From positions 3,520,183-3,584,182 of the forward strand of contig OZ254080.1 of the NCBI GenBank assembly GCA_965267485.1: a DNA stretch of 64,000 nt, read 5' to 3'. This document shows, in pieces, positions 1,976-38,282 of this stretch. The stretch is from Pseudomonadales bacterium. Its GTDB lineage: Bacteria > Pseudomonadota > Gammaproteobacteria > Pseudomonadales > Azotimanducaceae. The translations under genes and the position numbers were made by a program. The notes beneath the pieces were generated by a model. It made no database searches. It saw nothing but the letters and a program-made list of their open reading frames with translations, and had not been told where the DNA came from. The first letter of the stretch is position 1, and each line of letters begins with the position of its first letter.

Positions 1976-1978
1976 TAG

Positions 1979-3316: not shown

Positions 3317-3339
3317 AGGGTCTGGTAAACTACGACCAT

Positions 3340-3416
3340 GCCCCGGTAGCTCAGTAGGATAGAGCGACCGCCTCCTAAGCGGTAGGTCTCAGGTTCGATT
3401 CCTGATCGGGGCGCCA
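3340..3416 (+). tRNA. tRNA-Arg (anticodon CCT)
   Basis: A cloverleaf can be folded by eye. It has a 7-bp acceptor stem, anticodon stem ACCGC/GCGGT, loop CTCCTAA, a TTCGATT T-loop and an encoded CCA. Confidence 0.9.
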
Positions 3417-3469
3417 CTCACCACGCTGCCCGACCGGGCAGCGCAGCAACAGCGCAAAGCACACGACCG

Positions 3470-4123: not shown

Positions 4124-4242
4124 ATCACAATCCTTATGGGTGTTTTCCGCCCGCATAATTTAGAACGAATCGTTCACACACGCCACCCCGAAAGCCTCCG
4201 GTTGGTAAGCAAGTACTCACAAATGTAAACGAACGTAAACGG

Positions 4243-13278: not shown

Positions 13279-13287
13279 CGCCGTGCC

Positions 13288-26482: not shown

Positions 26483-27078
26483 GCGACCAGAGCGATCTGT
26501 TCGGCCATCTTCAGTCCCTGCTCCAGCAGGGCAAGGATCCTGACGATCATGATGCCGACATCTTCGAGCGGTACGGCCAGACCGTTGCCGTCATGGTCAT
26601 CGATTCAGTGGGGTTTTCCCGCGTTGCCGAGCGCAGCGGTATCCTGTACTTCCTCTCGCGCATGATTCGCGTACGTGACTCCATCGAGCCGGCCCTCCAT
26701 GCACACGGCGCCTCGATGGTCCGGTTCGAGGCCGACAATGCCTATGCCGCATTCGATCACGTCGATGCCGCCATCGAAGCTGCCCACGCCGTGCACCAGC
26801 AAATTGCCGATGCCGGCATCATGCTGAGTGAAGACGAACCGTACCGCGTCTGTATCGGCATCGGCTATGGCACGTTGCTTCACGCCGGCCACGAGGGCTA
26901 TTTCGGCCATGAGATGAATCTGGCTTCAAAGCTTGGCGAGGACATCGCCGAGGGTGCAGAGACGCTGATTACCCTCGATGCACATCGCGCCGCCAGCCCG
27001 TCTCTCACCGCAGGGTTCACAGACCAGCGCGTGAACGTCTCTGGCATCGAACTGCAGTACGCCCGCAAACGGCACTGA
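26479..27078 (+). CDS. Stand-alone class III nucleotidyl-cyclase-homology domain protein
   Basis: Motifs VMVIDSVGFS, EADNAYAAF, RVCIGIGYG and GHEMNLASKL. The ATGA overlaps the SBP stop. No TM segment or signal peptide. Confidence 0.6.
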   Translation: MSDQSDLFGHLQSLLQQGKDPDDHDADIFERYGQTVAVMVIDSVGFSRVAERSGILYFLSRMIRVRDSIEPALHAHGASMVRFEADNAYAAFDHVDAAIEAAHAVHQQIADAGIMLSEDEPYRVCIGIGYGTLLHAGHEGYFGHEMNLASKLGEDIAEGAETLITLDAHRAASPSLTAGFTDQRVNVSGIELQYARKRH

Positions 27079-27100: not shown

Positions 27101-27910
27101 ATGAAAACAGCGCTCACCCTAATGATCGGCCTGCTCGCGCTCACCAACCCGGCCCTGGCTGCCGACGACATCGTGACCGCGACCGGCGCCGGTATCGCCG
27201 ACGGGACGCGCTTTCCCTCCGCCATGCAAGCAAAGATGCTGTCCCGCCGCGCCGCCATGGCAGATGCCCAGCGCAACCTGCTAGAGATCATCAACGGTGT
27301 GCAGGTGACCTCCGGCACCACGGTCGAGAACATGATGGTGACCTCGGACAAGGTCGGGACCCGCGTCAGGGGCGCTGTGCAGGGCGCCTGGGTGATCGAC
27401 GAGAGCACGATGGAAGATCAGGGCAGCTGGGTGACCGAGATCACGCTCGGCATGTGCATGAACCGCAAGGCACCGGAATGCCGGCAGAAACCGACGCTGC
27501 AGCAGGCCATCGCCGCATCGATTGCCGAAGCCGAGGAAGTCACGCCGTTTGAGGCGGCAACCCCAGGTGCGGAGCCGGCTTCCGGGCTGATCGTCGACGT
27601 CAGCGGGGTCGGCTTCTCGCCTTTCCTGGACGTTCGCATTCGAAATCAGGGCGGCCAGGAGCTCTATGGCCCTTCGCTCGTTTCGATCGGCGACGGCACG
27701 GATTGGCTCAACTTTGCACCATCAGTTGATCAGGCCAGAGGCATGACCGCGCTCGTAGGCGAGTCGCCGCTGCTGGTGTCCGCCGAACGGGTCGAGGACG
27801 GCTACATCGTCGTCGTCTCCGATGATGATGCATCGCGAATACACGGCAGCAACCAGGCCGGCGACGCGTATCTGGCGCAGGGTAAAGTCGTTTTCGTGAT
27901 GGCGCGATGA
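27101..27910 (+). CDS. Exported LPP20-like protein, paralog 1 (N-terminal LPP20-like domain + shared C-terminal domain)
   Basis: Signal peptide ...NPALA. Motif AKMLSRRAAMADAQRNLLEIINGVQVTSGTTVENMM...VRGAVQGA, with C-terminal SGLIVDVSG... Confidence 0.62.
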   Translation: MKTALTLMIGLLALTNPALAADDIVTATGAGIADGTRFPSAMQAKMLSRRAAMADAQRNLLEIINGVQVTSGTTVENMMVTSDKVGTRVRGAVQGAWVIDESTMEDQGSWVTEITLGMCMNRKAPECRQKPTLQQAIAASIAEAEEVTPFEAATPGAEPASGLIVDVSGVGFSPFLDVRIRNQGGQELYGPSLVSIGDGTDWLNFAPSVDQARGMTALVGESPLLVSAERVEDGYIVVVSDDDASRIHGSNQAGDAYLAQGKVVFVMAR

Positions 27911-29121
27911 AACGCCTGCTGCCGGCGCTCATCGCAACGTCCCTCTGCGGCCTCACGCACGCACAATCGCCCGACGACCTGTTCGAGGCGCTCGACCGTG
28001 AACTCGAAGCCGAGTTCCAGGCAACCGACGCCGAACTGGAACGGCAGTTCCAGGCGCTGGACAAGGCCCTCAAGGAAGCATTCGAACGCGCCGAGGGTGA
28101 AGTCGCCGGCAAGTGGGGGCAGCAGGAAGCCGAACTGCCCAGCAAGAAGCGCTGGGCCGATTACTCCGAGGATCTGCAGGCACGGCGAATCATCGACTTC
28201 GAGGCCGGCGAGATTCGCATCGACATCCTTGCCGACGACATCGAGCCCGCCAGTCTCGCATCGCTGCTGAGCGAATCGGCGATCTCGCTGCAGAGCGCCA
28301 CCCAGGCCGATCTTTCGGAACGCGATCTCGTCCTGGGCTATGCGAAGCAGACCTTGGCCGAGCAGGCCATCCCGCTCGATACCTACGCCCCGGAACGCCA
28401 GAACCCGATCGTCGGGCAGGTCATGGGCGCCGTCCCCGACAGAACCGACATCGAAGCTGGCCTGACGGCAGTCGCAGGCGGCGGCAGCGTCGCCGGGCTT
28501 GATATTGCCCCGCTCGCGAACGGCAAGCAAAAGGTCTCGCTGACAATACCACTGAGGCTGGGCTTCGAGAGTACGCTGGCTTCCCGCTATCGTGGCAGCG
28601 TATTGAAAGAGTCGGCGCGGTACGATCTCGACCCCAGCCTGCTCTACGCAATCATCGAGACCGAGAGCAGCTTCAATCCACGCGCCAGATCACCCGTGCC
28701 GGCGTTCGGACTCATGCAACTCGTGCCGAAGTCTGGCGGCATGGATGCGTATCAGCATGTCTACGGCGAGAAGCTCCTGCTCGACCCCGAGTACCTCTAC
28801 CAGCCACACCAGAATGTCGAACTCGGCGCGGCCTACCTCGACGTGCTCAACTCCCGCTACCTGCGGCTCATCACCAATGAGACGAGCCGACTGCTGTGCA
28901 CGATCGCGGCCTACAATACCGGCGCCGGTAACGTGGCCCGCGCCTTCACCGGCAAGACCAACGTCGCAGAGGCGGCGCGGATCATCAACGGCATGACGCC
29001 GGAGGCGGTCTACGAGCACCTCAAGGCGCATCTTCCCTACGAGGAAACGCGCAATTATATTCAGAAGGTCACACGGGCACAGGACAAATACGCACCCCTG
29101 GATGCCCGGGCGAGGAGATAA
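27907..29121 (+). CDS. MltC-like membrane-bound lytic murein transglycosylase
   Basis: Catalytic motif IIETESSFNP plus GLMQLVP and AAYNTGAGNV. The long N-terminal domain is as in MltC. The ATGA overlaps the upstream gene. Confidence 0.83.
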   Translation: MKRLLPALIATSLCGLTHAQSPDDLFEALDRELEAEFQATDAELERQFQALDKALKEAFERAEGEVAGKWGQQEAELPSKKRWADYSEDLQARRIIDFEAGEIRIDILADDIEPASLASLLSESAISLQSATQADLSERDLVLGYAKQTLAEQAIPLDTYAPERQNPIVGQVMGAVPDRTDIEAGLTAVAGGGSVAGLDIAPLANGKQKVSLTIPLRLGFESTLASRYRGSVLKESARYDLDPSLLYAIIETESSFNPRARSPVPAFGLMQLVPKSGGMDAYQHVYGEKLLLDPEYLYQPHQNVELGAAYLDVLNSRYLRLITNETSRLLCTIAAYNTGAGNVARAFTGKTNVAEAARIINGMTPEAVYEHLKAHLPYEETRNYIQKVTRAQDKYAPLDARARR

Positions 29122-29123
29122 CC

Positions 29124-30140
29124 ATGATCAAGTTTCAACGACTGATACTGATGCTGATCGCGGGCTGTGCGGCAGCCACGGTGCAGGCCGAGGACGTCAT
29201 CCAGTCGCTGCCGGGCGGAGAGATCAACTGGACCGAAGGGGTCGTTTACGCCGACGGCTACGGTACTGCGTCACCGGACATTACGCTCGCGGCCCAGCGC
29301 CGCCTGCTGAGCCGTCGGGCCGCTGTGGTTGATGCCCAGCGCAACCTGCTCGAGATCACCAAAGGCGTGCGCCTGACCTCGATGACGAAGGTCAGCGACA
29401 TGATGGTGGCGAACGATACGACGGCAACGCGCGTGCGCGGCGTTGTGAAAGGCGCTGTCGTGGTCAAGGAGAACTACCAGAACGACATCTACAGCGTCAC
29501 GATGATGATGCCGGTGGGCGGCAAACTGATGCAGGCCGTGCTCGACAAGGATCAGATGACCGCCGATATCGAACGCCCGTCACTGTTTGGCATTGATGCC
29601 TGGGACGTCGCTGCTGCCGTCGACAGCCTGCTCGCCGCGGTGATCGCGCCGGTTCAGGCGGCCACCAACCTCACGCTCCAGAACCAGCAGGAAGCCGACA
29701 CGGTTCGCAGGATTCTGGGCTGGCTCCAATCGTCCGGGGCGGATGATGTCGAGGGCGCGCTCAGGGATTCGGTCAACCGCTTCGAACAGGGCGCGCGCTT
29801 CTCGGGACTGCTGGTCGACGCCTCACAGGTCAACAGCTTCGAAATCGCCGCGGTACCAACGATCCGCGACGAAGAAGGCAATATCGTCTACCCCAACGAC
29901 AGCACGTCGTTTGGCGATATCGTCGAGAAACGGGGGGTCACCTACGATCTCGATCTCGACGACGCCATCCGCAACGACCGCGTCGCCACGTCACCCTTCG
30001 TCGTCAATGCCGTCGGCACCTACAAAAACCAGTTCTCTGATCTCGTCATCAGCAAGGCGGACGCCCAGCGGATTGCCGAGAGCGCCAGCACGCTCGATGC
30101 CATGCAGCGGGCCGGTGTGCTGATTGTGATCGGGATCTAG
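29124..30140 (+). CDS. LPP20-like lipoprotein, paralog 2
   Basis: Lipobox LIAGC. Motif AAQRRLLSRRAAVVDAQRNLLEITKGVRLTSMTKVSDMM...VRGVVKGA, with C-terminal SGLLVDAS... Confidence 0.62.
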   Translation: MIKFQRLILMLIAGCAAATVQAEDVIQSLPGGEINWTEGVVYADGYGTASPDITLAAQRRLLSRRAAVVDAQRNLLEITKGVRLTSMTKVSDMMVANDTTATRVRGVVKGAVVVKENYQNDIYSVTMMMPVGGKLMQAVLDKDQMTADIERPSLFGIDAWDVAAAVDSLLAAVIAPVQAATNLTLQNQQEADTVRRILGWLQSSGADDVEGALRDSVNRFEQGARFSGLLVDASQVNSFEIAAVPTIRDEEGNIVYPNDSTSFGDIVEKRGVTYDLDLDDAIRNDRVATSPFVVNAVGTYKNQFSDLVISKADAQRIAESASTLDAMQRAGVLIVIGI

Positions 30141-30394
30141 CCCGCATATCTCACCGATTCGCTGCGTTCTCAATGAACACCGCGCCATCCGGTATGTTTG
30201 TCGAGGAGTCGGACGGCTCAGTCTGTAAACTCGAATCGCTTGCCTGAATCTCGCTTGTCTTGGCGGCTCGTGAGCGCACATGCTCGCTGTGGCGTGTTCT
30301 CGACGGGCGCGCCCGAGCGACGCCTCCGCTCGCGAGCACGCTCACAAGCCACCAATCCTGCGCGATATTTCAGGCAATCGGTGAGATATGCGGG
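30141..30394. mobile_element. MITE (254 bp) with 19-bp terminal inverted repeats, flanked by direct CTAG
   Basis: IR-L 30141-30159 (CCCGCATATCTCACCGATT) is a perfect inverted match to IR-R 30376-30394. CTAG lies at 30137-30140 and 30395-30398. No credible ORF inside. Confidence 0.7.
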
Positions 30395-31267
30395 CTAGAG
30401 CGCGTCTGCGCGCGGGCCCGTGGTAATCGTCAGATCGGCCTCGGCAAACTCGGCGACGCCCGGCCGGCTCATATTCGAGTCCTTGATACCAATCTCGATG
30501 CCGCGCGTTTTCGCGGCGACCTGCTCGATGCCATCGTTGACCAGATAAACATCCCTTCCGACCGGTGTCATATCAATGTTGCCGAGCTGTTCGGTGCTCG
30601 CATACAGAATCAGCTTCTCCTCGCCGAAGGGTTCCGTGACCGTCAGCTCGAAGCGATCCTCACCGGTGGGCACCTCGAACATCGTGCCACCCTGGAAGTA
30701 GTTGTCGCGCCGGTGCTGGTTCGGCAGCAGCTGAATGTTGTTCCCCTTTGCGTCGACATACACGAGCCGCGCGTAGAAAGGCTTGTTGCCACGCAAGAAG
30801 ACCTTCATCTTGTCCCCTTCGACGAACGCGCCCTCACCCGAGTTCACCCAGAGCTCGACATTGAGCGGCAGGCGCGGGTCCATCTTCATCTCACCGGTCT
30901 CCACCCGCTGCATCGGTGCAGCCGCCGGAATCACTTCGGCCTTGATTCGCAGCTTGACGCAGAGATCGACGGGCCCGTTCTGCGCCCAGTTCTTCTCGAG
31001 GATATCGAGCAGCCTGACCTCCGCCTGTGTGAACGCCTCAACGAGATCGTTCTTCAGCTCGAAGTTCTCGACAATCGTCGTGCTGCTGATGTGTGATGAC
31101 GTGTACTCCACTGCCATGCGCTTGGCAGATTCCAGCGCAACCTGCTCGGTTTGCTTTCTGGATTTGTCTTCACCCATGCAGGATTCGCCGTCAGCCTCGG
31201 TGATCGAAGACTGGGCGGCGAATGCATGACCACTTGCAAGTAGCGCCAGCAGCAGCAGAAATCTCAT
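30395..31267 (-). CDS. Exported DUF4384-domain protein with LPP20-like N-terminal region
   Basis: Signal peptide ...GHAFA. DUF4384-like segment VELWVNSGEGAFVEGDKMKVFLRGNKPFYARLVYVDAKGNNIQLLPN...EPFGEEKLILYAS. Confidence 0.6.
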   Translation of the reverse strand: MRFLLLLALLASGHAFAAQSSITEADGESCMGEDKSRKQTEQVALESAKRMAVEYTSSHISSTTIVENFELKNDLVEAFTQAEVRLLDILEKNWAQNGPVDLCVKLRIKAEVIPAAAPMQRVETGEMKMDPRLPLNVELWVNSGEGAFVEGDKMKVFLRGNKPFYARLVYVDAKGNNIQLLPNQHRRDNYFQGGTMFEVPTGEDRFELTVTEPFGEEKLILYASTEQLGNIDMTPVGRDVYLVNDGIEQVAAKTRGIEIGIKDSNMSRPGVAEFAEADLTITTGPRADAL

Positions 31268-31276
31268 GTCAACCTC

Positions 31277-32236
31277 CTAGAGAACGATGATCACGCCCGC
31301 ATCGTCGAGAAAACCCTCCCCGACCAGCTTTGCGAGACGCTCGGAAGATTCGGTATTCAGCACGATCTCGGTTCGCGTATCGCCAAAGGTACGCAGGCCT
31401 TTCAGCACCAGCGGCCGCTCACCGACGATCGGGTGGGTTCGCGCCGTTTCGAGATCGCGCGTGAACAGGGACACCAGCTGCCCACGATCGCGCCTGGCAA
31501 TCTCGTGGGATCGAGACGGATACAGGATACCGGCGCGCAACTCTCGAATGCGAGGCGACATGGACGGAATGAAGTTGCTCCCCCGGGCATCGAGCACAAG
31601 ACCGGTAGGCGTCGTATCGGCAACCGCGGCCCGGCCCGGGTTTGCGGCGATCAGCGACTCGATCGTCGAGATGCGGCTCGAAAGTCGGTCGAAAGCCGTC
31701 TGCCAGGCGGGCGCGTCGGCGGCGCTGGCCTTTGGCACCAGCAGTTCGAGCGCGTAGGCGATCCATGCCGCCGGCAGTTCGACCGCCGACAGTGCCTGCT
31801 CCTCTTCCGGGAATACCTCGTCATAAACCGTCGATGCGAACTGTCCGGACAAGGGTGCGGTTACCGTGACACGGCACGTGCCGTCATCCGCCGGCGTGCG
31901 CTCGACGATCTGTGCACCGCGAAGCACGCCTTCAACGGTTGTCTTGATGACGTCGCTGTCGACCATCATGTTCTTGACCAGCGTCGTACCCTGTACGCGA
32001 ACGCCCTGCATCGACTCGAGCAGGTTTCGCTGCGCATCGACGACCGCGGCGCGGCACGCGAGCAAGGACGCCACCGCCGCTGGCGTACCCTCGGGCGGAA
32101 TGCCTGCCCCCTCCGCCCGCGCCTGGGCGGCCGTCCAGTTGACGCCACTGTTGGCACCAACCCATTCAACGAACTCCTCGGCTGAGGCGAATCCCGCGCC
32201 GAGCAGGCAGATTGTCAGAACTAACGATCGAATCAT
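31277..32236 (-). CDS. Exported LPP20-like protein, paralog 3
   Basis: Signal peptide ...GFASA. Motif LLACRAAVVDAQRNLLESMQGVRVQGTTLVKNMM...VEGVLRGA, with C-terminal TGLVLDARG... The start overlaps the upstream stop by 4 nt. Confidence 0.62.
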   Translation of the reverse strand: MIRSLVLTICLLGAGFASAEEFVEWVGANSGVNWTAAQARAEGAGIPPEGTPAAVASLLACRAAVVDAQRNLLESMQGVRVQGTTLVKNMMVDSDVIKTTVEGVLRGAQIVERTPADDGTCRVTVTAPLSGQFASTVYDEVFPEEEQALSAVELPAAWIAYALELLVPKASAADAPAWQTAFDRLSSRISTIESLIAANPGRAAVADTTPTGLVLDARGSNFIPSMSPRIRELRAGILYPSRSHEIARRDRGQLVSLFTRDLETARTHPIVGERPLVLKGLRTFGDTRTEIVLNTESSERLAKLVGEGFLDDAGVIIVL

Positions 32237-34092
32237 GGCGAATCTCCGAGCAGCGCATCACCGAGCACGGTCATGTTCGAAGCCGGCGGCTCGAACGTGT
32301 TGTTGGTCAGGTTGACCTGGTAGCTGGATCCGTTCTGCAGGTGAAAGGGTTGATTGGCGACGAACTCGTTGCCAACGAAGACGGGCTGCGCCTGCCCCTC
32401 AATGACAACGCCGGAAGAACCCGCGGCGGCAATCCGGCTGTCCCGGATCGTGGGCCGGGCTGATCCGCTGATGGTCACGGCACTGAAGCGGTTGTTCTCG
32501 AACGTACATGACTCGACCAGCGGGCGGCCGGCGAGAATCTGCAGCGGCAGACCGCCGCCGGTGAAATCGATGCCGCGAAGCGTCACCGGTCGCTCCGTCT
32601 GCAACACGAGAAATTCACTGTAGGTCTGGCCGGCAGCATCATTCACGCGAACCGGCAGGCTCCGATCACCGAACACATGCAATTCACCGAGAACGGTCAA
32701 CGTGCCGCTGGATCCAACTCGAAGCTCGACGCCAGGGTCGATCAACAATACCCCGTCCGTTGCGATGCGTGTCGGCACCGACACCGCGTACGGGCTGTCT
32801 GCCTCTGTCAGGCGCCGTACGCCCGAGATCACTTCCGGCATGGCTCCCTTCACGACGGCGGCGCGGCCAAATCGGGGGTCGGGCGCGGCAATCGACTGTA
32901 CGACAACAGCTTCACTCTCGTTGCCGGCCCGGTCGACGGCACGTATCGCCAGCGTTTGCGGGCGGAAGTTCGTGAGCCCGGTCACGAGCGCCGTCTCGTC
33001 CATCACGGACATCGAGCTGAGCGCCTGCCCCAGCCGCGACTCGAGGCGCGATACTTCATAGGCTTCAACGTCGGAATCCGCCGGGCCCTGCCATTCGACC
33101 TCGATCGCGCCGTCCTTCGACAACGTCGTCACATGGGTGACCGCTGCAGGAGCAACGTTATCGACATTGAGTAGTCCGTAGGGTGAGATCCAGCTCGTCA
33201 CCTGTCCGAAGCTGTCCTGGAGCCGGCCGGTCACGACGGCATCCTCGAGATTCAGATCGCGGGGGATGACGGTGCTGCCGGTATACTGCCCCGGCGCGAC
33301 TTCCTCGAGATCAACAACCTCGTCACCCACGAGAGCGGCTGCCGTCATGTTGGCATCGCCCTCTATGGCGATCTCAAGTGTATCCCCGTATTTCAGGTAC
33401 TGGCCCGCGCCAGAGTGCACGACGTCGATGATCGCGGGTTTTTCTCGCTGCCCGAGCACCGCCGGCTGTGGAAACTCCTTGACGAGATCGCGGCCGAGAT
33501 CGTCCGCCGCCCGATACAGGTTGACGTCGCCGTAGAGATGCCGCGCCGAGGCCAGCGCATTCATGATGATGCCAACCGGATTGGTCGAAACACCACCGGC
33601 GTGACTGCGCCGCACATCTTCCACTGACCAGATCACGTCGCCGCTCGCATTGTAGAAAGTCAGCTCGACGCCAACCGCAATCTGCGCGTAGATCCCGGCG
33701 AACGTCTTGTTGAAGTGCGTGATGTTGCCAACGACGACGCCATCGACGCCGAGCAGTTCCATCGCCTGCGCAGGCGAGAGCGAGGATGGATCATCAATGC
33801 CCGCGAGCGCCAGCCGGTTGTCAACGTCTCGCCAGTGCAGCCAGCGGTAATTGGTGGTCGAGAAGTGGTTCGACAACGTGCGACGTACCGCCTCGAAGGC
33901 GAACTCGCTGTCCGTCTCGTTGGCGAACGGCATGATCGCAACGGTGGACGGCAGATTCTGCGCTGCCCGAACCTGCTCGATCTGCTCCCCGGACTGCACC
34001 GCCGGCGCAGCAGTCACCGTCGAATCGGTGGAGACAGCGCAGCCGCTGAGCAGCCAGAGCAGCAGGCAGATGACGATCTTATTGTTGTTCAT
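32233..34092 (-). CDS. Lipoprotein fusing a DUF799/GNA1162-like domain, Ig/FN3-like domains and a right-handed beta-helix
   Basis: Lipobox LLSGC. Motif VAIMPFANETDSEF...GVDGVVVGNITHF, then an FN3-like segment (IEVEWQGPADSDVEAYEV), then C-terminal parallel beta-helix repeats. ATG at 34092 was chosen. Confidence 0.6.
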   Translation of the reverse strand: MNNNKIVICLLLWLLSGCAVSTDSTVTAAPAVQSGEQIEQVRAAQNLPSTVAIMPFANETDSEFAFEAVRRTLSNHFSTTNYRWLHWRDVDNRLALAGIDDPSSLSPAQAMELLGVDGVVVGNITHFNKTFAGIYAQIAVGVELTFYNASGDVIWSVEDVRRSHAGGVSTNPVGIIMNALASARHLYGDVNLYRAADDLGRDLVKEFPQPAVLGQREKPAIIDVVHSGAGQYLKYGDTLEIAIEGDANMTAAALVGDEVVDLEEVAPGQYTGSTVIPRDLNLEDAVVTGRLQDSFGQVTSWISPYGLLNVDNVAPAAVTHVTTLSKDGAIEVEWQGPADSDVEAYEVSRLESRLGQALSSMSVMDETALVTGLTNFRPQTLAIRAVDRAGNESEAVVVQSIAAPDPRFGRAAVVKGAMPEVISGVRRLTEADSPYAVSVPTRIATDGVLLIDPGVELRVGSSGTLTVLGELHVFGDRSLPVRVNDAAGQTYSEFLVLQTERPVTLRGIDFTGGGLPLQILAGRPLVESCTFENNRFSAVTISGSARPTIRDSRIAAAGSSGVVIEGQAQPVFVGNEFVANQPFHLQNGSSYQVNLTNNTFEPPASNMTVLGDALLGDSP

Positions 34093-35095
34093 TGGTGACC
34101 TCTGTCGGTTCAGGATTCTGGCGGTAAACCTCGTCGTCGTAGGCATGCCGCGGCGGGCCCACGGTGACCGTTGGCGCGATGGTCTCGCCCCCGAACAGCC
34201 ACGAGCGGTTCATCTGGTCGGTCAGCTGGGTCATGCTCTGAAGCGCAAGGTCCACCGAAATCAGCGTAATCGGCAGCTGGCGAATGGCCGGCGCCGACTC
34301 GCGCATCAGCGTTTCGGCCTCGGCAAGCGTCAGGGAGGCCTGGTGAGTCAGCGTGACGGTATTCTCGAGCGTCGCCTGCAGGTCGTCATCGGTGTTGGCA
34401 ATCAACTCGTTGATGCCGGCCATGCTCCCCTGCAGGCTCGTCAGACTCGTCTCCACTGACGCCACCATGCCGGGCAGCGTCCGGCTGACTTCGGCAAGGC
34501 TCGCCGTGACGGTCTCGAGATTGTCGATGCTTCTGTAGATCTTGTCCTGATTCTGGTTCATGCCGCGGGTGATCTCCTCGACGTTGGCAACGATCTCGGT
34601 CACCTGGTCGGTGAGCATGATGATGTCGATCTCCTCGAGGATCGAACTGATGCCCTTCGGCGTATCGGCAGGGATGAATGTACCCGGGTCCATCACGCCG
34701 TTGTCCTGGTTCGCCGGCTGGAAGATCAGGCCGCTGCCGGTCAGCAGCGTCGAGACGCCGAGCTCCGTGTCGACGGCGAGCCGGCTGCCTTCGGCGTAGA
34801 ACGGCTGATAGGCCGGAGACAGTTTGAAGTCGACGCGCACCATGCCCTCGGTCGTCATGCTGACGGCGGTGACATTGCCGATCGGGACGCCGCGCATCGA
34901 AACGGATGCCTCAACGCCAATGCCGTAGGTCTGGTCGAGTACCGTGTAGAAAGGAATGCCCTCTTCGGCATTCAGGCGATGCACGAAGGGAATCAGAAAA
35001 CCGATAAGAAAGAGGAGCAATGCACCAATCACGAACAGCCCGACGACGCGATCTCGCGCACCGACCTCGAAGGGCGTGTGACCGGTCGCCGTCAT
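34079..35095 (-). CDS. MlaD/MCE-family protein with long C-terminal helical extension
   Basis: N-terminal TM segment and MCE core (VSMRGVPIGNVTAV). Confidence 0.8.
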   Translation of the reverse strand: MTATGHTPFEVGARDRVVGLFVIGALLLFLIGFLIPFVHRLNAEEGIPFYTVLDQTYGIGVEASVSMRGVPIGNVTAVSMTTEGMVRVDFKLSPAYQPFYAEGSRLAVDTELGVSTLLTGSGLIFQPANQDNGVMDPGTFIPADTPKGISSILEEIDIIMLTDQVTEIVANVEEITRGMNQNQDKIYRSIDNLETVTASLAEVSRTLPGMVASVETSLTSLQGSMAGINELIANTDDDLQATLENTVTLTHQASLTLAEAETLMRESAPAIRQLPITLISVDLALQSMTQLTDQMNRSWLFGGETIAPTVTVGPPRHAYDDEVYRQNPEPTEVTNEQQ

Positions 35096-35757
35096 GAGAC
35101 GCCCTGCGCTACCAGCGATCGATTCTTGATGTCGTAGACCCGATCCGATCGCTCGATCACAAGGTCACTCGACGTCGTCATGATGACGCTCATCGGATGC
35201 TCTGCCTGATAGCTTCTGATCGTCTGCATTGTAGCGACAACCACCTCCTCTGACATCCCTCCCTCCAGTTCGTCCACCAGCAGCAGTCCGGGCTCGACGA
35301 CGAGCGCGCGCGCCAGGTTCACCAGCCGGGTCTGCACATCGTTGAGCTGGTGTGGGCTCAGCGTCAGCAGCGAGGCATCGAGGCCAAGCCGTGCGCAGAC
35401 GGTCGTGATCCGGTCTTCGATCTGCGCCTCAGTCAGGTTGGTGTGAAAACGGAGCGGCAGGCTGATGTTCTGGTAAACGGTATAGAGACTGATGAGCCCG
35501 CGTTCTTCGTAGACAAATCCGATCGATGCAGCGACGGCTTCCGAGGCGCCTTGCAGGAGGTTCTCGCCCCGGTAGACGACCTCGCCGCCGCACCCCCGGA
35601 GCAGACCGGCAATCGCCTTCAAGAGGCTGGTGCCACCGTCGAGCACACCCGTCTCGATGGCCACGAGTTCGCCGTCGTCCACCCTCATGTCGATGCCATC
35701 GAGCAGCAGCAGCCCCGGATACTCGACCCGAAGGTCCCGTACCTGCAGCAGACTCAT
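35092..35757 (-). CDS. MlaF-like ABC ATPase with degenerate catalytic motifs
   Basis: ABC fold is recognisable. However, Walker A reads TGVLDGGTS (no Lys), the Q-loop Gln is replaced by Glu, the signature reads LSPHQ, and the H-loop His is absent. Walker B LLLVDE is retained. Confidence 0.72.
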   Translation of the reverse strand: MSLLQVRDLRVEYPGLLLLDGIDMRVDDGELVAIETGVLDGGTSLLKAIAGLLRGCGGEVVYRGENLLQGASEAVAASIGFVYEERGLISLYTVYQNISLPLRFHTNLTEAQIEDRITTVCARLGLDASLLTLSPHQLNDVQTRLVNLARALVVEPGLLLVDELEGGMSEEVVVATMQTIRSYQAEHPMSVIMTTSSDLVIERSDRVYDIKNRSLVAQGVS

Positions 35758-36566
35758 TGCGTGTACGCCAAAAGGGACAGCACGACATTGATCAAGAAGA
35801 ACGCCATGAGCTGCGAGGTGGTCGAGTTCGAGATGGCTTCTGAAACCTCATCGAAGCTTTCGTCGGCCTTGCCGCCGAAGTGAATCGAGATGACGCCGAT
35901 GACCATACCGCCGAGCAACGCCTTGACGATGTTGATGGCCACTTCGTTCATCGTGATCTGGCCGAGAATGTTCGACAGGAATGCGCCGAAGCTGATCGTC
36001 GGATCCGACAGCCAGATGAAGACATACGCCGACAGGATGCACATGAAGTCGAAGTAGATGAACATCAGCAGGAGCGAAATGGGAAACGCAAAGAAGACAG
36101 GCAACAAAAACAGGAACACCGGGTTGATCCCCATGCCCTTGAGCACCTGAAACTCGCGATTGATGCGCAGATATCCGATTTCGGACGTCACGGCCGTCGC
36201 AGAGCGCGAAATCAGGATGATGCCGGAAATCAGCGGGCCGAGTTCCCTGAACACGATGACCACGAACAGGTACCCGTACTGTTCGGCGATGACCGCGCGC
36301 GGGATGTAGTCAAAGAGGCGGGACATCAGCAAGGCGCCGATGAAGATCGCAATCATCCCGTTGACATAGAGCGCACGCACACCGGTCTTGTACAGCTGGC
36401 GCACGAACAACCGGTAAAAAATCTGGCGCCGGTTCGGATAACGGAGATCCGCGGCGGCGGTCAGCGCAACCGAAATGAGGCCGACGATATCGAAGACATA
36501 CGCGAGGGTGTTCCGGTGCCACCTGCCGACGGCACCGACCCAGTCCATCACTGACGATCCAGCCAT
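35754..36566 (-). CDS. MlaE-family ABC permease
   Basis: Motifs RELGPLISGIILISRSATAVTSEIG and MGINP, with multiple TM segments. Confidence 0.85.
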   Translation of the reverse strand: MAGSSVMDWVGAVGRWHRNTLAYVFDIVGLISVALTAAADLRYPNRRQIFYRLFVRQLYKTGVRALYVNGMIAIFIGALLMSRLFDYIPRAVIAEQYGYLFVVIVFRELGPLISGIILISRSATAVTSEIGYLRINREFQVLKGMGINPVFLFLLPVFFAFPISLLLMFIYFDFMCILSAYVFIWLSDPTISFGAFLSNILGQITMNEVAINIVKALLGGMVIGVISIHFGGKADESFDEVSEAISNSTTSQLMAFFLINVVLSLLAYTQ

Positions 36567-37315
36567 GCCGCAACCGCACCTGCGCGCTCGTCATCGCCGA
36601 TTGCCAGCAGCGCGCGCCGGGCACGATCGGCGAATGCACCCGCACGCTCACGGTCGCCTGCCCCGGCAGCGAGCCGCGCAAGTGCAAAGAGCGTATCCGC
36701 GACGCCGCGGGAATCTCCGGCAAGTCGATACATGTCGAGCGCGTTCTGCAACAGATCGCTGCGCGCCGCGGCGAGGCCGGCGCGATACAGCACGAAGGCA
36801 CGGTCTGCGGCGCGCTGCCGGCCATCGTCCAGCAGCGCTGCGGCTCGCTCGGTCTCGTTCAGGTAGGTCAGGGCAACGGCGCGGTCAATGGGATCATCAG
36901 CACGCGATACGACCCGCCGGAACGCGGCTTCGTCACCCAGCGCACGGCCCACGATGATGTCGGTCTCGAAGTCAGCATCCAGCTCGCGCCGGGTGGGTGC
37001 GTCCATCTGCTGCCGGAGCCTGTCGAGCCGGCGGGCTTCGACCTTTGCCGCGTCCACCTCACCCCGGGCGAGCGCATACTGGGCCGCTAGTTTGGTAACG
37101 CGCCACTGCCCGCCCAACTCATCAAGGGACTCATACCGGCTTCGTGCGGCGCTCATCGCCTGCGGAATCAGCCAATAGGCTCGGGTCTCAAAGGCATCGA
37201 GCAGGTTCTGCTCGAGTGGATCGATTGTGGGCGCCTCCTCCTCGGGGCTGCTGGCACAGCCGAGCAGCAGGAGCAGCGCCAGGCTAGGCAGAAGCCGTCT
37301 GGGCCATCTTTTCAT
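36548..37315 (-). CDS. Lipoprotein with TPR-like helical repeats
   Basis: MKRWPRRLLPSLALLLLLGC contains a lipobox. The start at 37315 overlaps the upstream gene by 32 nt. Confidence 0.5.
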   Translation of the reverse strand: MKRWPRRLLPSLALLLLLGCASSPEEEAPTIDPLEQNLLDAFETRAYWLIPQAMSAARSRYESLDELGGQWRVTKLAAQYALARGEVDAAKVEARRLDRLRQQMDAPTRRELDADFETDIIVGRALGDEAAFRRVVSRADDPIDRAVALTYLNETERAAALLDDGRQRAADRAFVLYRAGLAAARSDLLQNALDMYRLAGDSRGVADTLFALARLAAGAGDRERAGAFADRARRALLAIGDDERAGAVAAWLDRQ

Positions 37316-38282
37316 GTTCGCGTTCCAGAATCCGGAGCAAAGCCGGCAGCCGATCAGGCGTGTTGACGTATTTGTCGAGAATATCGCGCGCTTCCTCGAG
37401 ACTCTTTTCACGAAGCAGGAACCGGAAGTTGGCACGCAGCGGCGAGAAGTCTTCCTTGTCGAGCAGCCCCTCGATGAGGTCGGTGAACTCGTCGTATTGC
37501 CCCTGTTCGAACAGGCGTCTCGCCCGACCGAGCTTGTACCGGAGTATCAGCGGCGACATGAGTGAATTCGAGAGGAACGCAGCGAACAGCGCCAGGAACG
37601 TCACGATGAAGTCACCGACCTTGTCTTTCGCGATGCTCATCCACTCCGCGAATTCGGTACTCGTCTGCGCTTCCTCGGTGGTCCGGATTTCCTCGACATA
37701 GCTGCGGGCCTGGCGATCGAAGGGGTCGATCTGCAGGGCCCGGCGAAATGTCACTTCTGCGGCATCAAGGTCGCCCTTGCGATACTGCGCCTCCCCCTTC
37801 GCCGTGAGCAGCACGGCGTTGCCCGGGAACTTCGCGATGGCGAGGTCACCGAGGGCAATCGCGGTGTCGAAGTTGCCGGCGTCGGTGGCCTTCTGGATGG
37901 CAATCGCCGCGAGGTTCAGGCTCGAGGTGAGCCGCTCGAAGCGCCGGTCGATCTCCTCGATGCGCGAGCGGGCATGATCATCGGCAGCATCTGCCGACAG
38001 TTCCAGATATGCCCGTCGTGCGGCTCCGAAACGCTCGCGATCGTACAGGAGGTCGGCATAGTCCCTGAGAATTGTGCGGTTCTTCCGGAACTTGTCCCGC
38101 CCCGCCTCGAGGACATTCAGCGCACTTCGGTAGTCGCCTCGCTCCACCAATTCTGATGAATATTCGACCACCCGCTGGGGCGAAGCGAGCACCTCGGCAT
38201 CGATCGCCGCAGACCGCACCGGCGACGCGAAGGTCACCATGGCGATTGCCAGCAGAATCAGTAGGATAGAGCGTCCAGACAT
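37284..38282 (-). CDS. Bitopic TPR protein (exported TPR domain, one TM segment, cytoplasmic tail)
   Basis: Signal peptide, TPR-like repeats and a TM segment (FIVTFLALFAAFLSNSL). It is the first gene of the minus-strand operon. Confidence 0.58.
   Translation of the reverse strand: MSGRSILLILLAIAMVTFASPVRSAAIDAEVLASPQRVVEYSSELVERGDYRSALNVLEAGRDKFRKNRTILRDYADLLYDRERFGAARRAYLELSADAADDHARSRIEEIDRRFERLTSSLNLAAIAIQKATDAGNFDTAIALGDLAIAKFPGNAVLLTAKGEAQYRKGDLDAAEVTFRRALQIDPFDRQARSYVEEIRTTEEAQTSTEFAEWMSIAKDKVGDFIVTFLALFAAFLSNSLMSPLILRYKLGRARRLFEQGQYDEFTDLIEGLLDKEDFSPLRANFRFLLREKSLEEARDILDKYVNTPDRLPALLRILEREHEKMAQTASA

What the first reader, a model, noticed from the sequence alone, without database searches (positions are those of the whole stretch)
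27101..38282. Eleven-gene envelope locus: four LPP20-like proteins, DUF4384, a DUF799-FN3-beta-helix lipoprotein and an MltC-like enzyme, joined to an MCE transporter
SEEN:
- Two convergent, tightly coupled operons meet at 30.1-30.4 kb.
- Plus strand: LPP20-like protein (27101), MltC-like lytic transglycosylase (27907, ATGA overlap), LPP20-like lipoprotein (29124).
- Minus strand, all overlapping or less than 10 bp apart: bitopic TPR protein, TPR-like lipoprotein, MlaE-like permease, MlaF-like ATPase, MlaD/MCE protein, DUF799-FN3-beta-helix lipoprotein, LPP20-like protein, LPP20-like/DUF4384 protein.
- Every non-transporter product carries a signal peptide or lipobox.
ESTABLISHED:
- The LPP20-family protein FlgP builds periplasmic disk/ring scaffolds on Campylobacter- and Vibrio-type flagellar motors.
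- MCE proteins form periplasm-spanning lipid conduits.
- Dedicated lytic transglycosylases accompany envelope-spanning machines.
INFERENCE: no flagellar, secretion-system or pilus core gene sits in these operons. The locus therefore looks like an uncharacterised periplasm-spanning scaffold or lipid-trafficking apparatus rather than any named system.
Basis: partly seen in the sequence, partly recalled or inferred. Interest (0 to 1): 0.85.

Follow-up and report, generated by a model that had tools for sequence, protein, structure and literature searches.

The report
Non-flagellar FlgP-like envelope system with dead-ATPase MCE
This is a real, conserved and so far undescribed cell-envelope gene cluster of marine Gammaproteobacteria that combines flagellar-disk-like (FlgP-type) periplasmic proteins and a cell-wall-cutting enzyme with a lipid-transporter-like (MCE) complex whose "ATPase" has lost every catalytic motif, so it probably acts as an envelope-spanning scaffold or passive conduit, not an ATP-driven pump.

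Summary
All eleven genes exist at the stated coordinates, are tightly coupled, and nearly all domain calls are supported.

**Conservation.** The gene set recurs in about 25 genomes of marine Pseudomonadales-like MAGs. In two loci (L005, L013) all eleven genes lie on one strand, so the two convergent operons belong together.

- The "MlaF-like ATPase" is a conserved pseudo-ATPase. Walker A Lys, the LSGGQ signature and the Q-loop Gln are gone in all 24 orthologues and the H-loop His in nearly all. The same holds for distant relatives, including cultured Catenovulum.
- The system is two separable modules. One holds FlgP-like proteins, an MltC-like enzyme and a GNA1162-β-helix lipoprotein. The other is K-J-MlaE-pseudoATPase-MlaD. 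Each occurs alone elsewhere.
- A, C and E are FlgP-like domains carrying the ring-forming hairpin, fused to a Treponema Tp0624-D2-like domain. That domain family has 2,492 cluster representatives and no Pfam model.
- The conserved neighbourhood is larger. It adds a class III cyclase-like gene, a periplasmic caspase-SH3-Sel1 protein, a Sel1/PG-binding protein and a 371-aa protein.

**Context.** No flagellar, pilus or secretion core gene lies near any related locus, and no paper describes the system.

**Best reading.** An outer-membrane-proximal FlgP-like ring docked to an ATP-independent MCE complex. This mechanism is inferred, not shown.

The parts
26479..27078 (+). U1: cytoplasmic class III nucleotide-cyclase-like protein (199 aa). 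A conserved neighbour that was not in the original finding.
   Evidence: PDB 3mr7 adenylate/guanylate cyclase, E 1.3e-8, with both metal-binding Asp and the Asn retained. Found next to D or A in at least 13 distinct genomes. No signal peptide. Start taken from the L037 gene call.
27101..27910 (+). A: secreted FlgP/LPP20-like domain plus Tp0624-D2-like C-terminal domain (269 aa).
   Evidence: Pfam LPP20 26.6 bits, cut-off 25.9. The C-terminal domain aligns with those of C and E. SPI-type signal peptide.
27907..29121 (+). B: MltC-like lytic transglycosylase (404 aa).
   Evidence: Pfam SLT E 1.5e-25 plus Mltc_N E 5.8e-8. NCBIfam MltC E 6.6e-52, but below the equivalog cut-off. The E-S catalytic motif 'IETESSFNP' is read directly from the sequence.
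29124..30140 (+). C: secreted FlgP-like domain, helical linker and Tp0624-D2-like domain (338 aa).
   Evidence: Gapless phmmer alignment to C. jejuni FlgP 9hmf_C, E 1.3e-9. Family profile E 1.8e-18 to FlgP and 1.9e-7 to Tp0624. AF2 model pLDDT 80.6. Foldseek: 9hmf 2.6e-7, 5jir 4.3e-6. Cys15 is not conserved.
30141..30394 (.). 254-bp MITE-like insertion between the convergent stop codons. Not part of the system.
   Evidence: 19-bp perfect terminal inverted repeats flanked by CTAG. Absent from the 98%-identical scaffold L037.
30395..31267 (-). D: secreted protein with an LPP20/FlgT_N-like N-terminus (tentative) and DUF4384 (290 aa).
   Evidence: DUF4384 E 2.4e-22. FlgT_N E 0.0026, below cut-off. 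The same weak FlgT_N hit appears in the L005 orthologue.
31277..32236 (-). E: secreted FlgP/LPP20-like domain plus Tp0624-D2-like domain (319 aa).
   Evidence: Pfam LPP20 28.0 bits, cut-off 25.9. Always follows F, even in the minimal two-gene loci.
32233..34092 (-). F: outer-membrane lipoprotein made of a GNA1162/DUF799-like α/β domain, two β-sandwich (Ig/FN3) domains and a right-handed β-helix (619 aa).
   Evidence: Beta_helix E 3.5e-10, DUF4959/FN3-like E 4e-7, GNA1162-like E 0.14 here. PF05643 is recorded for most orthologues. Lipobox LLSGC is nearly invariant. AF2 model pLDDT 87.5 shows four domains. Foldseek finds tandem FN3 at about 1e-7.
34079..35095 (-). G: single-MCE (MlaD) protein with an N-terminal TM helix and a Pro/Gly-poor stretch of about 150 residues after the MCE domain, read as a helical extension (338 aa).
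   Evidence: Pfam MlaD 34.5 bits. TIGR00996 Mce family E 4.4e-12 over residues 22-262. Mce4_CUP1 E 0.0016. Faint Helical_needle hit in the precomputed Pfam list. TM at 17-35. Low Pro/Gly content over 146-295.
35092..35757 (-). H: MlaF-like pseudo-ATPase (221 aa).
   Evidence: Best PDB matches are MlaF, E 3.7e-18. Walker A is TGVLDGGTS (Lys replaced by Gly). The signature is LNDVQ in place of LSGGQ. Q-loop Gln is replaced by Glu, and the H-loop His is absent. Walker B D-E is kept. All this holds in 24 orthologues and in 34-42%-identical relatives.
35754..36566 (-). I: MlaE-like permease (264-270 aa).
   Evidence: Pfam MlaE E 1.4e-38, 133 bits. Multiple TM segments. It is the best-conserved gene of the locus at 63-81% identity.
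36548..37315 (-). J: lipoprotein of the MCE module, helical-repeat-like (255 aa).
   Evidence: Lipobox LLLLGC. Weak TPR_12 hit, E 0.011. Precedes MlaE in most loci that carry the MCE module. Unannotated genes of similar size occupy the same slot in L034, L035 and L036, although tblastn did not detect them as J homologues.
37284..38282 (-). K: bitopic TPR protein with a signal peptide, a periplasmic TPR domain, a TM helix at 225-243 and a cytoplasmic tail (332 aa).
   Evidence: TPR_19 E 7.6e-17. Hydrophobic segments at 4-22 and 225-243. Residues 115-328, which cover the TM helix and the tail, are the part conserved in the distant loci L034 and L035.
38380..41238 (+). L: periplasmic caspase-like protease with SH3 and Sel1 repeats (952 aa). 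Conserved divergent neighbour.
   Evidence: Peptidase_C14 E 2.2e-16, SH3_3, Sel1 E 1.3e-49. Signal peptide. Found in at least 10 loci. The His/Cys dyad motifs AGHG and DACFAG are read from the sequence.
41245..42582 (-). M: periplasmic PG_binding_1 plus Sel1-repeat protein (445 aa). Conserved neighbour.
   Evidence: Sel1 E 1.9e-32, PG_binding_1 E 2.6e-8. Present in L005, L006, L007, L009 and L023.
42600..43715 (-). N: secreted 371-aa protein of unknown family. Conserved neighbour.
   Evidence: No Pfam, NCBIfam or PDB hit. Signal peptide. Present in L005, L006, L007 and L009.
24902..25636 (+). U3: TIGR04219 outer-membrane β-barrel protein (244 aa). Its association with the system is tentative.
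   Evidence: TIGR04219 218.6 bits, cut-off 105. A homologue also flanks the Catenovulum locus L034 and L006.

Best explanation
The locus encodes a conserved, uncharacterised, non-flagellar envelope assembly built from two modules.

**Module 1: an outer-membrane-proximal periplasmic scaffold.**
- Three paralogous secreted proteins (A, C, E) carry a FlgP-type SHS2 domain with the ring-forming β-hairpin and a Tp0624-D2-like domain.
- D is an LPP20/FlgT_N-like DUF4384 protein.
- F is an outer-membrane lipoprotein whose GNA1162-like domain sits at the membrane. It projects two β-sandwich spacers and a β-helix into the periplasm.
- B is a dedicated MltC-like lytic transglycosylase that would open the peptidoglycan for the assembly.

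**Module 2: an inner-membrane MlaE-MlaD (MCE) complex.**
- The MCE protein G carries a long helical extension pointing outward.
- The MlaF-like subunit H cannot hydrolyse ATP.
- Two accessory proteins are specific to the module: the bitopic TPR protein K, with a conserved TM helix and cytoplasmic tail, and the lipoprotein J.

**Proposed working.** The FlgP-like proteins oligomerise into a ring or disk under the outer membrane. This is analogous to the FlgP basal disk, or to the PqiC toroid around the PqiB needle. The ring receives the MCE needle. Together they form an ATP-independent trans-envelope tether or passive hydrophobic conduit, whose state may be set by a cyclic-nucleotide signal.

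**Shown versus inferred.**
- Shown: gene content, domain identities, conservation, modularity and degeneracy of the NBD.
- Inferred: ring formation, physical docking of the two modules, passive or structural function, and regulation.
For: **One functional unit.**
- The K-J-I-H-G-F-E-D order is kept in about 24 loci.
- A-B-C lies on the same strand directly upstream in L005 and L013, and is convergent in the window, L001, L006, L025 and L026.

**FlgP relationship.**
- Pfam LPP20 hits for A and E.
- C aligns without gaps to C. jejuni FlgP residues 64-160, which include the hairpin region. The family profile gives E 1.8e-18 and Foldseek gives 9hmf at 2.6e-7.
- The AF2 model places a hairpin (E83-87, E101-105) straight after the SHS2 helix, with a low-confidence tip.
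- PMC12222027 states that ring oligomerisation in this family correlates with exactly this insert.

**C-terminal domain equals Tp0624 D2.** Foldseek 5jir 4.3e-6; profile E 1.9e-7.

**Pseudo-ATPase.**

**MCE with helical extension.** TIGR00996 covers residues 22-262, with weak Mce4_CUP1 and Helical_needle hits.

**Precedent for an outer-membrane lipoprotein ring docking an MCE needle.** The PqiC octameric toroid (PMC10897342).

**All module-1 products are exported.** F and J carry conserved lipoboxes.

**Cyclic-nucleotide genes recur beside different variants.**
- U1 cyclase in at least 13 genomes.
- A Crp-type regulator in Catenovulum.
- GGDEF-EAL proteins in L036 and L029.
Against: - There is no experimental or multimer-model evidence for rings or for contact between the modules.
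- Each module occurs without the other. L029, L031, L032 and L004 lack MCE, and L036 has MCE alone. Co-function is therefore not obligatory.
- A, C and E lack the lipid anchor that fixes FlgP to the outer membrane.
- No outer-membrane β-barrel partner lies inside the core. U3 is only a loose neighbour.
- F's β-helix hints at an enzymatic or carbohydrate-binding role that this model does not use.
- A degenerate NBD might still bind nucleotide, or another ATPase might substitute.
Confidence: 0.45

Rival explanations
1. The locus is a surface-polymer or large-surface-protein export or processing apparatus. The GNA1162/CsgG-superfamily lipoproteins form the outer-membrane gate. The β-helix of F, or the large FN3/GH85_C-like proteins of other variants, is the enzyme or cargo. 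The TPR/Sel1 proteins act as AlgK/PelB-like scaffolds. The MCE and FlgP-like parts are accessory.
For: - F carries a NosD/pectate-lyase-type β-helix.
- Variants replace F with a TPR-CsgG-like protein plus a 940-965-aa FN3/GH85_C-like protein.
- Sel1 neighbours weakly resemble AlgK.
- A widespread 'csgG cluster' containing a GNA1162 homologue affects matrix phenotypes in A. baumannii.
- c-di-GMP genes lie next to two variants.
Against: - No glycosyltransferase, polymerase, flippase or curli-like subunit gene is in any locus.
- The CsgG hit covers only part of the profile (positions 40-107 of 210). It may reflect only the shared α/β fold.
- This reading gives no role to a dead-ATPase MCE complex.
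Confidence: 0.2
2. The locus is a conventional ATP-driven Mla-like phospholipid transporter that happens to have extra periplasmic accessory lipoproteins.
For: MlaE, ABC-fold and MlaD genes lie in the canonical order with overlapping stop and start codons. The best PDB matches of H are MlaF proteins.
Against: - H lacks the Walker A lysine, the LSGGQ signature, the Q-loop Gln and usually the H-loop His. This is conserved in 24 orthologues and in distant relatives.
- No MlaB, MlaC or MlaA gene is in the locus.
- NCBIfam MlaD, MlaE and MlaF equivalog cut-offs are all missed by a wide margin.
Confidence: 0.1
3. The genes are accessory parts of a flagellar motor (an H/T-ring or basal-disk equivalent) encoded away from the flagellar regulon.
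For: - Domain similarity to FlgP.
- Weak similarity to FlgT_N.
- Sub-threshold MotX-like Sel1 hits and an FlcA-like TPR hit.
Against: - No flagellar gene appears among the annotated or detected genes within ±10 kb of any of the 38 fetched loci.
- None appears among the window ORFs scanned.
- The architecture differs from FlgP: an extra D2 domain and no lipobox.
- The genes are coupled to an MCE module, which no flagellar system has.
- The MotX, FlcA and FlgT_N hits are far below their cut-offs and reflect generic repeats.
Confidence: 0.04
4. The locus is a periplasmic caspase-based cell-death or anti-phage defence island, in which the cyclase makes a signal and the caspase is the effector.
For: - The caspase-like L and the cyclase-like U1 are conserved neighbours.
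- DUF4384 is elsewhere fused to orthocaspases.
Against: - PADLOC finds no system, only a generic caspase domain hit.
- L is exported whereas U1 is cytoplasmic.
- Eleven envelope genes, including a lytic transglycosylase and an MCE complex, are not typical of defence islands.
- The locus sits in a stable chromosomal context with normal GC content.
Confidence: 0.05

Closest known systems
FlgP basal-disk / H-ring proteins of Campylobacter and Vibrio flagellar motors (LPP20 family, PF02169; PDB 9hmf, 8z5n)
   Same: A, C and E share the SHS2-type LPP20 domain, including the long β-hairpin insert after the helix. That insert is the basis of FlgP ring formation.
   Different: - No lipobox is conserved.
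- Each protein carries an extra C-terminal Tp0624-D2-like domain.
- Each locus has three paralogues.
- There is no flagellar gene context.
- The genes are coupled to MltC-like, GNA1162-like and MCE genes.
Treponema pallidum Tp0624 (PDB 5jir; PMC5104382)
   Same: The D1 (SHS2-like) plus D2 two-domain arrangement matches the whole of protein C. Foldseek gives E 4.3e-6 and the sequence profile gives E 1.9e-7 on D2.
   Different: Tp0624 adds an OmpA-like third domain that A, C and E lack. Its function is also unknown, so the match names a fold and not a mechanism.
MlaFEDB phospholipid transporter
   Same: It has the MlaE permease, an ABC-fold subunit most similar to MlaF, an MCE-domain protein with an N-terminal TM helix, and the same gene order.
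   Different: - The NBD is catalytically degenerate in every member.
- The MCE protein has a C-terminal stretch of about 150 residues, read as a helical extension, that E. coli MlaD lacks.
- There is no MlaB, MlaC or MlaA.
- The accessory proteins K and J are specific to this module.
Trans-envelope MCE systems with outer-membrane lipoprotein rings (PqiABC with the PqiC toroid; the mycobacterial Mce1 needle; the Veillonella MlaD bridge)
   Same: The concept is the same: an MCE hexamer with a helical needle reaches an outer-membrane-associated oligomeric partner (PMC10897342, PMC10665443). G also resembles Mce-family proteins over residues 22-262.
   Different: - G has a single MCE domain.
- The partner proteins are FlgP-like and GNA1162-like, not PqiC/DUF330.
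- The complex uses a MlaE permease with a dead NBD in place of PqiA or an active MceG.
GNA1162/DUF799-CsgG-like 'csgG clusters' of Neisseria, Vibrio and Acinetobacter
   Same: They are widespread clusters of small envelope lipoproteins of the GNA1162/CsgG/TolB-N-like fold and of unknown role. GNA1162 has been speculated to be an accessory part of an unidentified transport machine. My recollection that these clusters also include LPP20-family genes was not checked here.
   Different: - Here the GNA1162-like domain is fused to Ig/FN3 domains and a β-helix.
- The LPP20 proteins carry the D2 domain.
- A lytic transglycosylase and an MCE module are added.

Membership tests
FlgP / LPP20 family (ring-forming FlgP subgroup) | SHS2-type LPP20 domain detectable by sequence | tested here: met
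   A scores 26.6 bits and E 28.0 bits against a cut-off of 25.9. C versus FlgP 9hmf_C gives E 1.3e-9. The family profile gives 1.8e-18.
FlgP / LPP20 family (ring-forming FlgP subgroup) | Long β-hairpin insert between the SHS2 helix and the second strand, which correlates with ring oligomerisation (PMC12222027) | tested here: met
   The alignment of C to C. jejuni FlgP 64-160 is gapless across the insert. The AF2 model shows strands 83-87 and 101-105 directly after helix 56-79.
FlgP / LPP20 family (ring-forming FlgP subgroup) | N-terminal lipobox (outer-membrane lipoprotein) | tested here: not met
   A and E have SPI-type signal peptides. C's Cys15 is not conserved (Leu is commonest), while Ala22 of the cleavage site is present in 79 of 83 sequences.
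FlgP / LPP20 family (ring-forming FlgP subgroup) | Encoded with, or part of, a flagellar motor | tested here: not met
   No flagellar gene appears among the annotated or detected genes within ±10 kb of the 38 fetched loci, nor in the scanned window ORFs.
FlgP / LPP20 family (ring-forming FlgP subgroup) | Forms closed rings or disks in situ | not testable with these tools
   This needs a multimer prediction or cryo-ET. Only monomer models could be made.
MlaFEDB-type MCE ABC transporter | MlaE-family permease | tested here: met
   PF02405, 133 bits, E 1.4e-38. The NCBIfam MlaE subfamily cut-off is not reached: 94.7 versus 212.
MlaFEDB-type MCE ABC transporter | Membrane-anchored MCE-domain protein | tested here: met
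   PF02470 scores 34.5 bits against a cut-off of 25.1. TM helix at 17-35.
MlaFEDB-type MCE ABC transporter | Catalytically competent ABC ATPase: Walker A GxxGxGK[ST], LSGGQ signature, Q-loop Gln and H-loop His | tested here: not met
   Walker A is TGVLDGGTS, the signature is LNDVQ, the Q-loop reads VYE and there is no H-loop His. Only Walker B D-E is kept. This is conserved in 24 orthologues and in 34-42%-identical relatives.
MlaFEDB-type MCE ABC transporter | MlaB (STAS), MlaC shuttle and MlaA partners | tested here: not met
   None is encoded in the locus or in any related locus. Copies elsewhere in the genome could not be checked.
Trans-envelope MCE systems (Pqi / Let / Mce1 type) | Helical needle or stacked MCE rings long enough to cross the periplasm | tested here: inconclusive
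   G has a single MCE domain plus about 150 Pro/Gly-poor residues. TIGR00996 covers 22-262. Mce4_CUP1 gives E 0.0016 and Helical_needle is only faint. No structure model of G was made.
Trans-envelope MCE systems (Pqi / Let / Mce1 type) | PqiC-type (DUF330) outer-membrane lipoprotein or a PqiA/LetA-type membrane partner | tested here: not met
   The lipoproteins J and F belong to other families. The permease is of the MlaE type.
GNA1162 / DUF799 lipoprotein family (PF05643) | PF05643 match plus lipobox | tested here: met
   The window copy scores only E 0.14. PF05643 is recorded for most of the 80 orthologue clusters, and NCBI names some of them GNA1162 or DUF799 family. The lipobox Cys is nearly invariant.
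GNA1162 / DUF799 lipoprotein family (PF05643) | Small single-domain protein in a DUF4810/CsgG-type cluster | tested here: not met
   F has 619 aa in four domains. No DUF4810 gene is present. CsgG-like genes appear only in the variant loci L029, L034 and L035.
MltC (membrane-bound lytic transglycosylase C) | Mltc_N plus SLT domains with the catalytic Glu | tested here: met
   Both Pfam domains are above cut-off. The E-S motif is present in the sequence. The equivalog cut-off is not reached (176.8 versus 375), so B is MltC-like and not an orthologue.
Tp0624 D1-D2 architecture | SHS2-like domain followed by a D2 fold | tested here: met
   Foldseek matches 5jir over 335 columns, E 4.3e-6. The profile hit to the D2 region gives E 1.9e-7. 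The OmpA-like D3 is absent.

The most novel reading that the evidence does not exclude
The locus encodes a previously unseen kind of envelope-spanning machine. A non-flagellar FlgP-type periplasmic ring, evolutionarily related to flagellar disks, is seated through a purpose-cut hole in the peptidoglycan. It caps an MCE needle whose MlaF-derived pseudo-NBD no longer burns ATP. The pseudo-NBD would instead act as a ligand-responsive switch, for example for the nucleotide made by the adjacent cyclase, or for c-di-GMP in other variants. That switch would gate a passive inter-membrane lipid or hydrophobic-molecule bridge or tether. The periplasmic caspase-Sel1 protein would act on the DUF4384 component.
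Probability: 0.15. Interest if true: 0.9.

Novelty: new variant of a known kind. Interest (0 to 1): 0.72.

Why it matters
- MCE systems are central to the open question of how lipids move between the two membranes of Gram-negative bacteria. A conserved clade whose NBD has lost nearly every catalytic motif, yet remains under strong constraint, is a natural experiment on whether MCE conduits need ATP, or whether they can serve as scaffolds or sensors.
- FlgP-type ring-forming proteins are known only from flagellar motors. A conserved non-flagellar set would show where flagellar disks came from, or what else such rings do.
- The C-terminal D2-like domain defines a large family with no Pfam model: 2,492 cluster representatives at 50% identity.
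- The system occurs in cultured Catenovulum species, so it can be tested directly.

Tried and rejected
- **Exact-sequence look-up of B:** nothing on record.
- **Rfam, tRNA and promoter/terminator scans:** nothing relevant to the locus. Terminator-like sites were at chance level.
- **Foldseek of the F model:** swamped by tandem FN3/Ig matches. It did not identify the nearest β-helix or GNA1162-fold structures, and the model could not be cropped.
- **PDB sequence searches of D and N:** nothing meaningful. For F, only chance-level hits.
- **Pfam at E up to 10:** no model for the C-terminal domain of A, C and E, for U1, for N or for U3. Ten diverse D2-domain proteins showed only LPP20 or nothing.
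- **Literature searches:** LPP20+DUF4384, LPP20+CsgG and MCE/MlaD+LPP20 found no paper on this system. MlaF+MlaE+'degenerate'+'Walker A' found only a review of tripartite efflux and T1SS, which was not read.
- **Anti-phage defence reading:** rejected after PADLOC.
- **Flagellar-accessory reading:** rejected for lack of any flagellar context.
- **'C is a lipoprotein':** rejected on conservation grounds.
- **Sub-threshold MotX, FlcA and AlgK hits** of the Sel1/TPR proteins: treated as generic repeat similarity.

Full report

Yes. The ORF map shows three co-directional plus-strand genes:
- A 27101-27910
- B 27907-29121
- C 29124-30140

It shows eight co-directional minus-strand genes:
- K 38282-37284
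- J 37315-36548
- I 36566/36548-35754
- H 35757-35092
- G 35095-34079
- F 34092-32233
- E 32236-31277
- D 31267-30395

Junctions are 4-32-nt overlaps or gaps of 9 nt or less. A 98%-identical metagenome scaffold (L037) carries independent gene calls of identical lengths. GC content is uniform across the region at about 0.61-0.63.

**2. Domain calls**

- **A and E:** Pfam LPP20 above cut-off.
- **C:** no Pfam hit, but phmmer against the PDB gives C. jejuni FlgP (9hmf_C, E 1.3e-9) and Vibrio FlgP. A profile of 83 family members raises this to 1.8e-18.
- **D:** DUF4384 at E 2.4e-22. Its N-terminus gives only a sub-threshold FlgT_N hit, which recurs in an orthologue.
- **B:** Mltc_N plus SLT with the E-S catalytic motif. 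It is below the MltC equivalog cut-off.
- **F:** Beta_helix and an FN3-like region. GNA1162/DUF799 scores only E 0.14 in this copy, but it is a standard precomputed hit in most of the 80 orthologue clusters, some of which NCBI names "GNA1162 family" or "DUF799 family lipoprotein".
- **F model:** an AF2 model built on 53 sequences (pLDDT 87.5) shows an α/β domain (39-207), two β-sandwiches (222-311, 320-402) and a β-helix (422-610). Foldseek returns tandem FN3/Ig structures.
- **G, I, H:** G is MlaD with an N-terminal TM helix, I is MlaE and H is ABC_tran.
- **K:** TPR, with hydrophobic segments at 4-22 and 225-243.
- **J:** carries a lipobox and a weak TPR hit.
- **Export signals:** all non-transporter products start with signal-peptide-like sequences.
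- **Correction:** C's lipobox Cys is not conserved, while the AxA cleavage site is. C is probably a soluble periplasmic protein.

**3. Conservation and modularity**

Searching with C and F found about 120 and 80 protein clusters respectively, almost all from marine metagenomes and MAGs of Pseudomonadales, 'Candidatus Azotimanducaceae'/HTCC2089 and Arenicellales. A scan of one genome per species found 26 loci.

tblastn of all window genes against the loci gave these results:
- **Order:** K-J-I-H-G-F-E-D stays in this order in about 24 loci.
- **A-B-C moves as a block:**
  - upstream on the same strand in L005 and L013, giving a co-directional eleven-gene array;
  - convergent downstream in the window, L001/L007, L006, L025 and L026;
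  - reduced to a C-like gene in front of K in L002/L003, L009, L012, L014, L018, L023 and L027.

This settles that the two convergent operons are functionally linked.

The parts are also separable:
- **Colwellia MAGs (L029, L031):** A-B-C-F-E with no MCE genes. A divergent operon encodes a FlgT_N-like protein, a TPR-CsgG-like protein and a 939-aa FN3/GH85_C-like protein.
- **A Zetaproteobacteria contig (L032):** an LPP20-like gene, TPR, MltC, TPR, FecR, F, an E-like gene and FecR.
- **L004:** only F-E.
- **L036:** GGDEF-EAL, a 254-aa protein, MlaE, the pseudo-ATPase and MlaD, with none of the FlgP-like genes.
- **L035:** both partner sets around the MCE module.
- **Cultured Catenovulum sp. SX2 (L034):** Crp, LPP20, MltC, a C-like gene, a K-like gene, a 262-aa gene in J's position, MlaE, the pseudo-ATPase, MlaD, a 362-aa protein, TPR-CsgG and an FN3 protein.

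**4. The "ATPase" is a pseudo-enzyme**

Aligned to MlaF structures, H shows the following:

| Motif | Canonical | In H |
|---|---|---|
| Walker A | GPSGTGKTT | TGVLDGGTS (Lys replaced by Gly; two Gly lost) |
| ABC signature | LSGG(Q/M) | LNDVQ |
| Q-loop | Gln | Glu |
| H-loop | His | absent |
| Walker B | D-E | kept |

In 24 distinct orthologues these replacement motifs are themselves almost invariant: xVLDG[GA]T[ST][LF]L, LNDVQ and VYE, with an H-loop His in only one copy. They persist in relatives at 34-42% identity, including three Catenovulum species.

The subunit is therefore under strong purifying selection for something other than ATP hydrolysis. A library search for degenerate MlaF found only one unrelated review, which I did not read.

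**5. The FlgP-like proteins**

- The AF2 model of C (pLDDT 80.6) has an SHS2-type N-domain. After its helix (56-79) comes a hairpin (83-87, 101-105) with a disordered tip. A helical linker and an α/β C-terminal domain follow.
- Drobnič et al. (PMC12222027) report that ring oligomerisation in this family correlates with exactly this insert. It forms the continuous β-sheet of FlgP rings and is missing from Lpp20 and dodecin.
- C aligns to FlgP without gaps across the insert.
- Foldseek and a sequence profile both link the whole of C to Treponema Tp0624 domains D1 and D2. The Tp0624 authors described D2 as previously uncharacterised (PMC5104382).
- A profile of the three window C-terminal domains finds 2,492 representatives (765 at E ≤ 1e-10) among 1.84 billion. 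The domain is nearly always at the C-terminus of 270-350-aa proteins, and occasionally multi-copy.
- Ten diverse members show LPP20 or no Pfam domain. One sits in yet another envelope cluster with CsgG/LpoB-like, PEGA, FecR and AsmA-like genes (L033).

**6. The conserved neighbourhood is larger**

- **U1 (26479-27078):** matches a class III adenylate/guanylate cyclase (3mr7, E 1.3e-8) with the metal-binding residues retained. It lies next to D or A in at least 13 genomes.
- **L:** a signal-peptide-bearing caspase-SH3-Sel1 protein.
- **M:** PG_binding_1 plus Sel1.
- **N:** unknown family, secreted.
- L, M and N lie on the other side in many loci.
- DUF4384 is fused to orthocaspases in cyanobacteria (PMC7475262). 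This gives a domain-fusion hint that D and L interact.
- **U3 (24902-25636):** a TIGR04219 outer-membrane β-barrel. It recurs beside the Catenovulum locus and L006, so its association is tentative.
- Cyclic-nucleotide genes of four kinds sit beside different variants: the U1 cyclase, a Crp regulator, GGDEF-EAL and RR-GGDEF-EAL.

**7. Most likely mechanism (confidence about 0.45)**

Shown:
- an exported set of FlgP-type proteins with the ring-forming insert;
- a dedicated lytic transglycosylase;
- an outer-membrane lipoprotein with a long multi-domain periplasmic projection;
- an inner-membrane MlaE/MCE complex with a helical extension and a dead NBD;
- all of these inherited together.

Inferred:
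- A, C and E (with or without D) assemble into a ring or disk beneath the outer membrane, organised by F.
- B opens the peptidoglycan.
- The G hexamer's helical extension reaches this ring, much as PqiC forms a toroid around the PqiB needle (PMC10897342).
- Without ATP hydrolysis, the assembly works as a tether or passive conduit.
- K contacts the I-H complex. Its TM helix and cytoplasmic tail are the part conserved in distant variants.
- The pseudo-NBD, and possibly the adjacent cyclase, provide regulation.

**8. Rivals**

- **Exopolymer or surface-protein export apparatus (0.2).** It explains the β-helix and the CsgG-like and FN3 partners. However, there are no synthesis or cargo genes, and the MCE module has no role.
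- **Conventional ATP-driven Mla transporter (0.1).** Contradicted by section 4.
- **Flagellar accessory (0.04).** There is no flagellar context in any locus, and the architecture differs from FlgP.
- **Defence or cell-death island (0.05).** No PADLOC system matched, and the compartments of L and U1 do not match.
- **Chance adjacency.** Excluded by the synteny.

**9. Comparison with known systems and novelty**

The system shares parts with several known ones:
- FlgP disks
- Tp0624
- Mla
- needle-type MCE systems
- GNA1162/CsgG clusters, whose role is still unknown

It fails defining features of each. It has no lipid anchor and no flagellar context. It has no competent ATPase and no MlaBCA. It has no PqiC or PqiA.

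I file it as a new variant of known kinds (MCE envelope systems, LPP20-family assemblies), not as a member of any named system.

**10. Limits**

- Everything mechanistic is inferred from sequence, monomer models and gene order.
- No multimer modelling could be run.
- Signal peptides were judged by inspection and hydropathy only.
- Whole-genome content of the carriers (flagella, canonical Mla) could not be examined.
- The genome scan used two peptide patterns of F, so the true distribution is underestimated.

Noticed in passing
window 30141-30394: A 254-bp element with perfect 19-bp terminal inverted repeats (CCCGCATATCTCACCGATT) sits exactly between the stop codons of the convergent genes C and D, flanked by CTAG on both sides. 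The 98%-identical scaffold L037 lacks it and reads ...GATCTAG-AG-CTAGAG.... It looks like a MITE-like insertion/excision polymorphism. No other copy is in the window or in the fetched loci.
   Followed up: partly
window 24902-25636: A TIGR04219-family outer-membrane β-barrel gene (218.6 bits, cut-off 105) lies about 1.5 kb upstream of A. A homologue also flanks the Catenovulum locus (L034 17736-18521) and L006. It could be the missing outer-membrane partner, but the association is seen in only three loci.
   Followed up: partly
window 26479-27078 and loci L034, L036, L029: Cyclic-nucleotide signalling genes of different kinds lie directly beside different variants of the system. These are a class III cyclase-like gene here and in at least 13 genomes, a Crp-type regulator in Catenovulum, and GGDEF-EAL proteins in L036 and Colwellia.
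   Followed up: partly
window 38380-41238 and 30395-31267: A signal-peptide-bearing caspase-like protease with SH3, a long acidic low-complexity linker and Sel1 repeats is a conserved neighbour of the DUF4384 protein D. In cyanobacteria DUF4384 is fused to orthocaspases.
   Followed up: partly
window 11647-14946: A secretin (Secretin plus Secretin_N_2) and an adjacent TPR protein look like part of a separate MSHA/type IV pilus-like cluster about 12 kb from the locus. It is not conserved next to the related loci.
   Followed up: no
L033 (Logan SRR31654862 contig) 1681-10931: A distant LPP20-D2 protein lies in a cluster with a transglutaminase-like protein, another LPP20, TPR/SLH, CsgG/LpoB-like, PEGA and FecR genes, followed by a 1,220-aa AsmA-like protein. 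AsmA-like proteins are, to my knowledge, a second class of inter-membrane lipid-transfer protein. This is a single case.
   Followed up: no
L001 and L003 flanks: Cytochrome P450 genes, and in L001 an Alginate_exp-type porin, lie next to the locus in two relatives.
   Followed up: no
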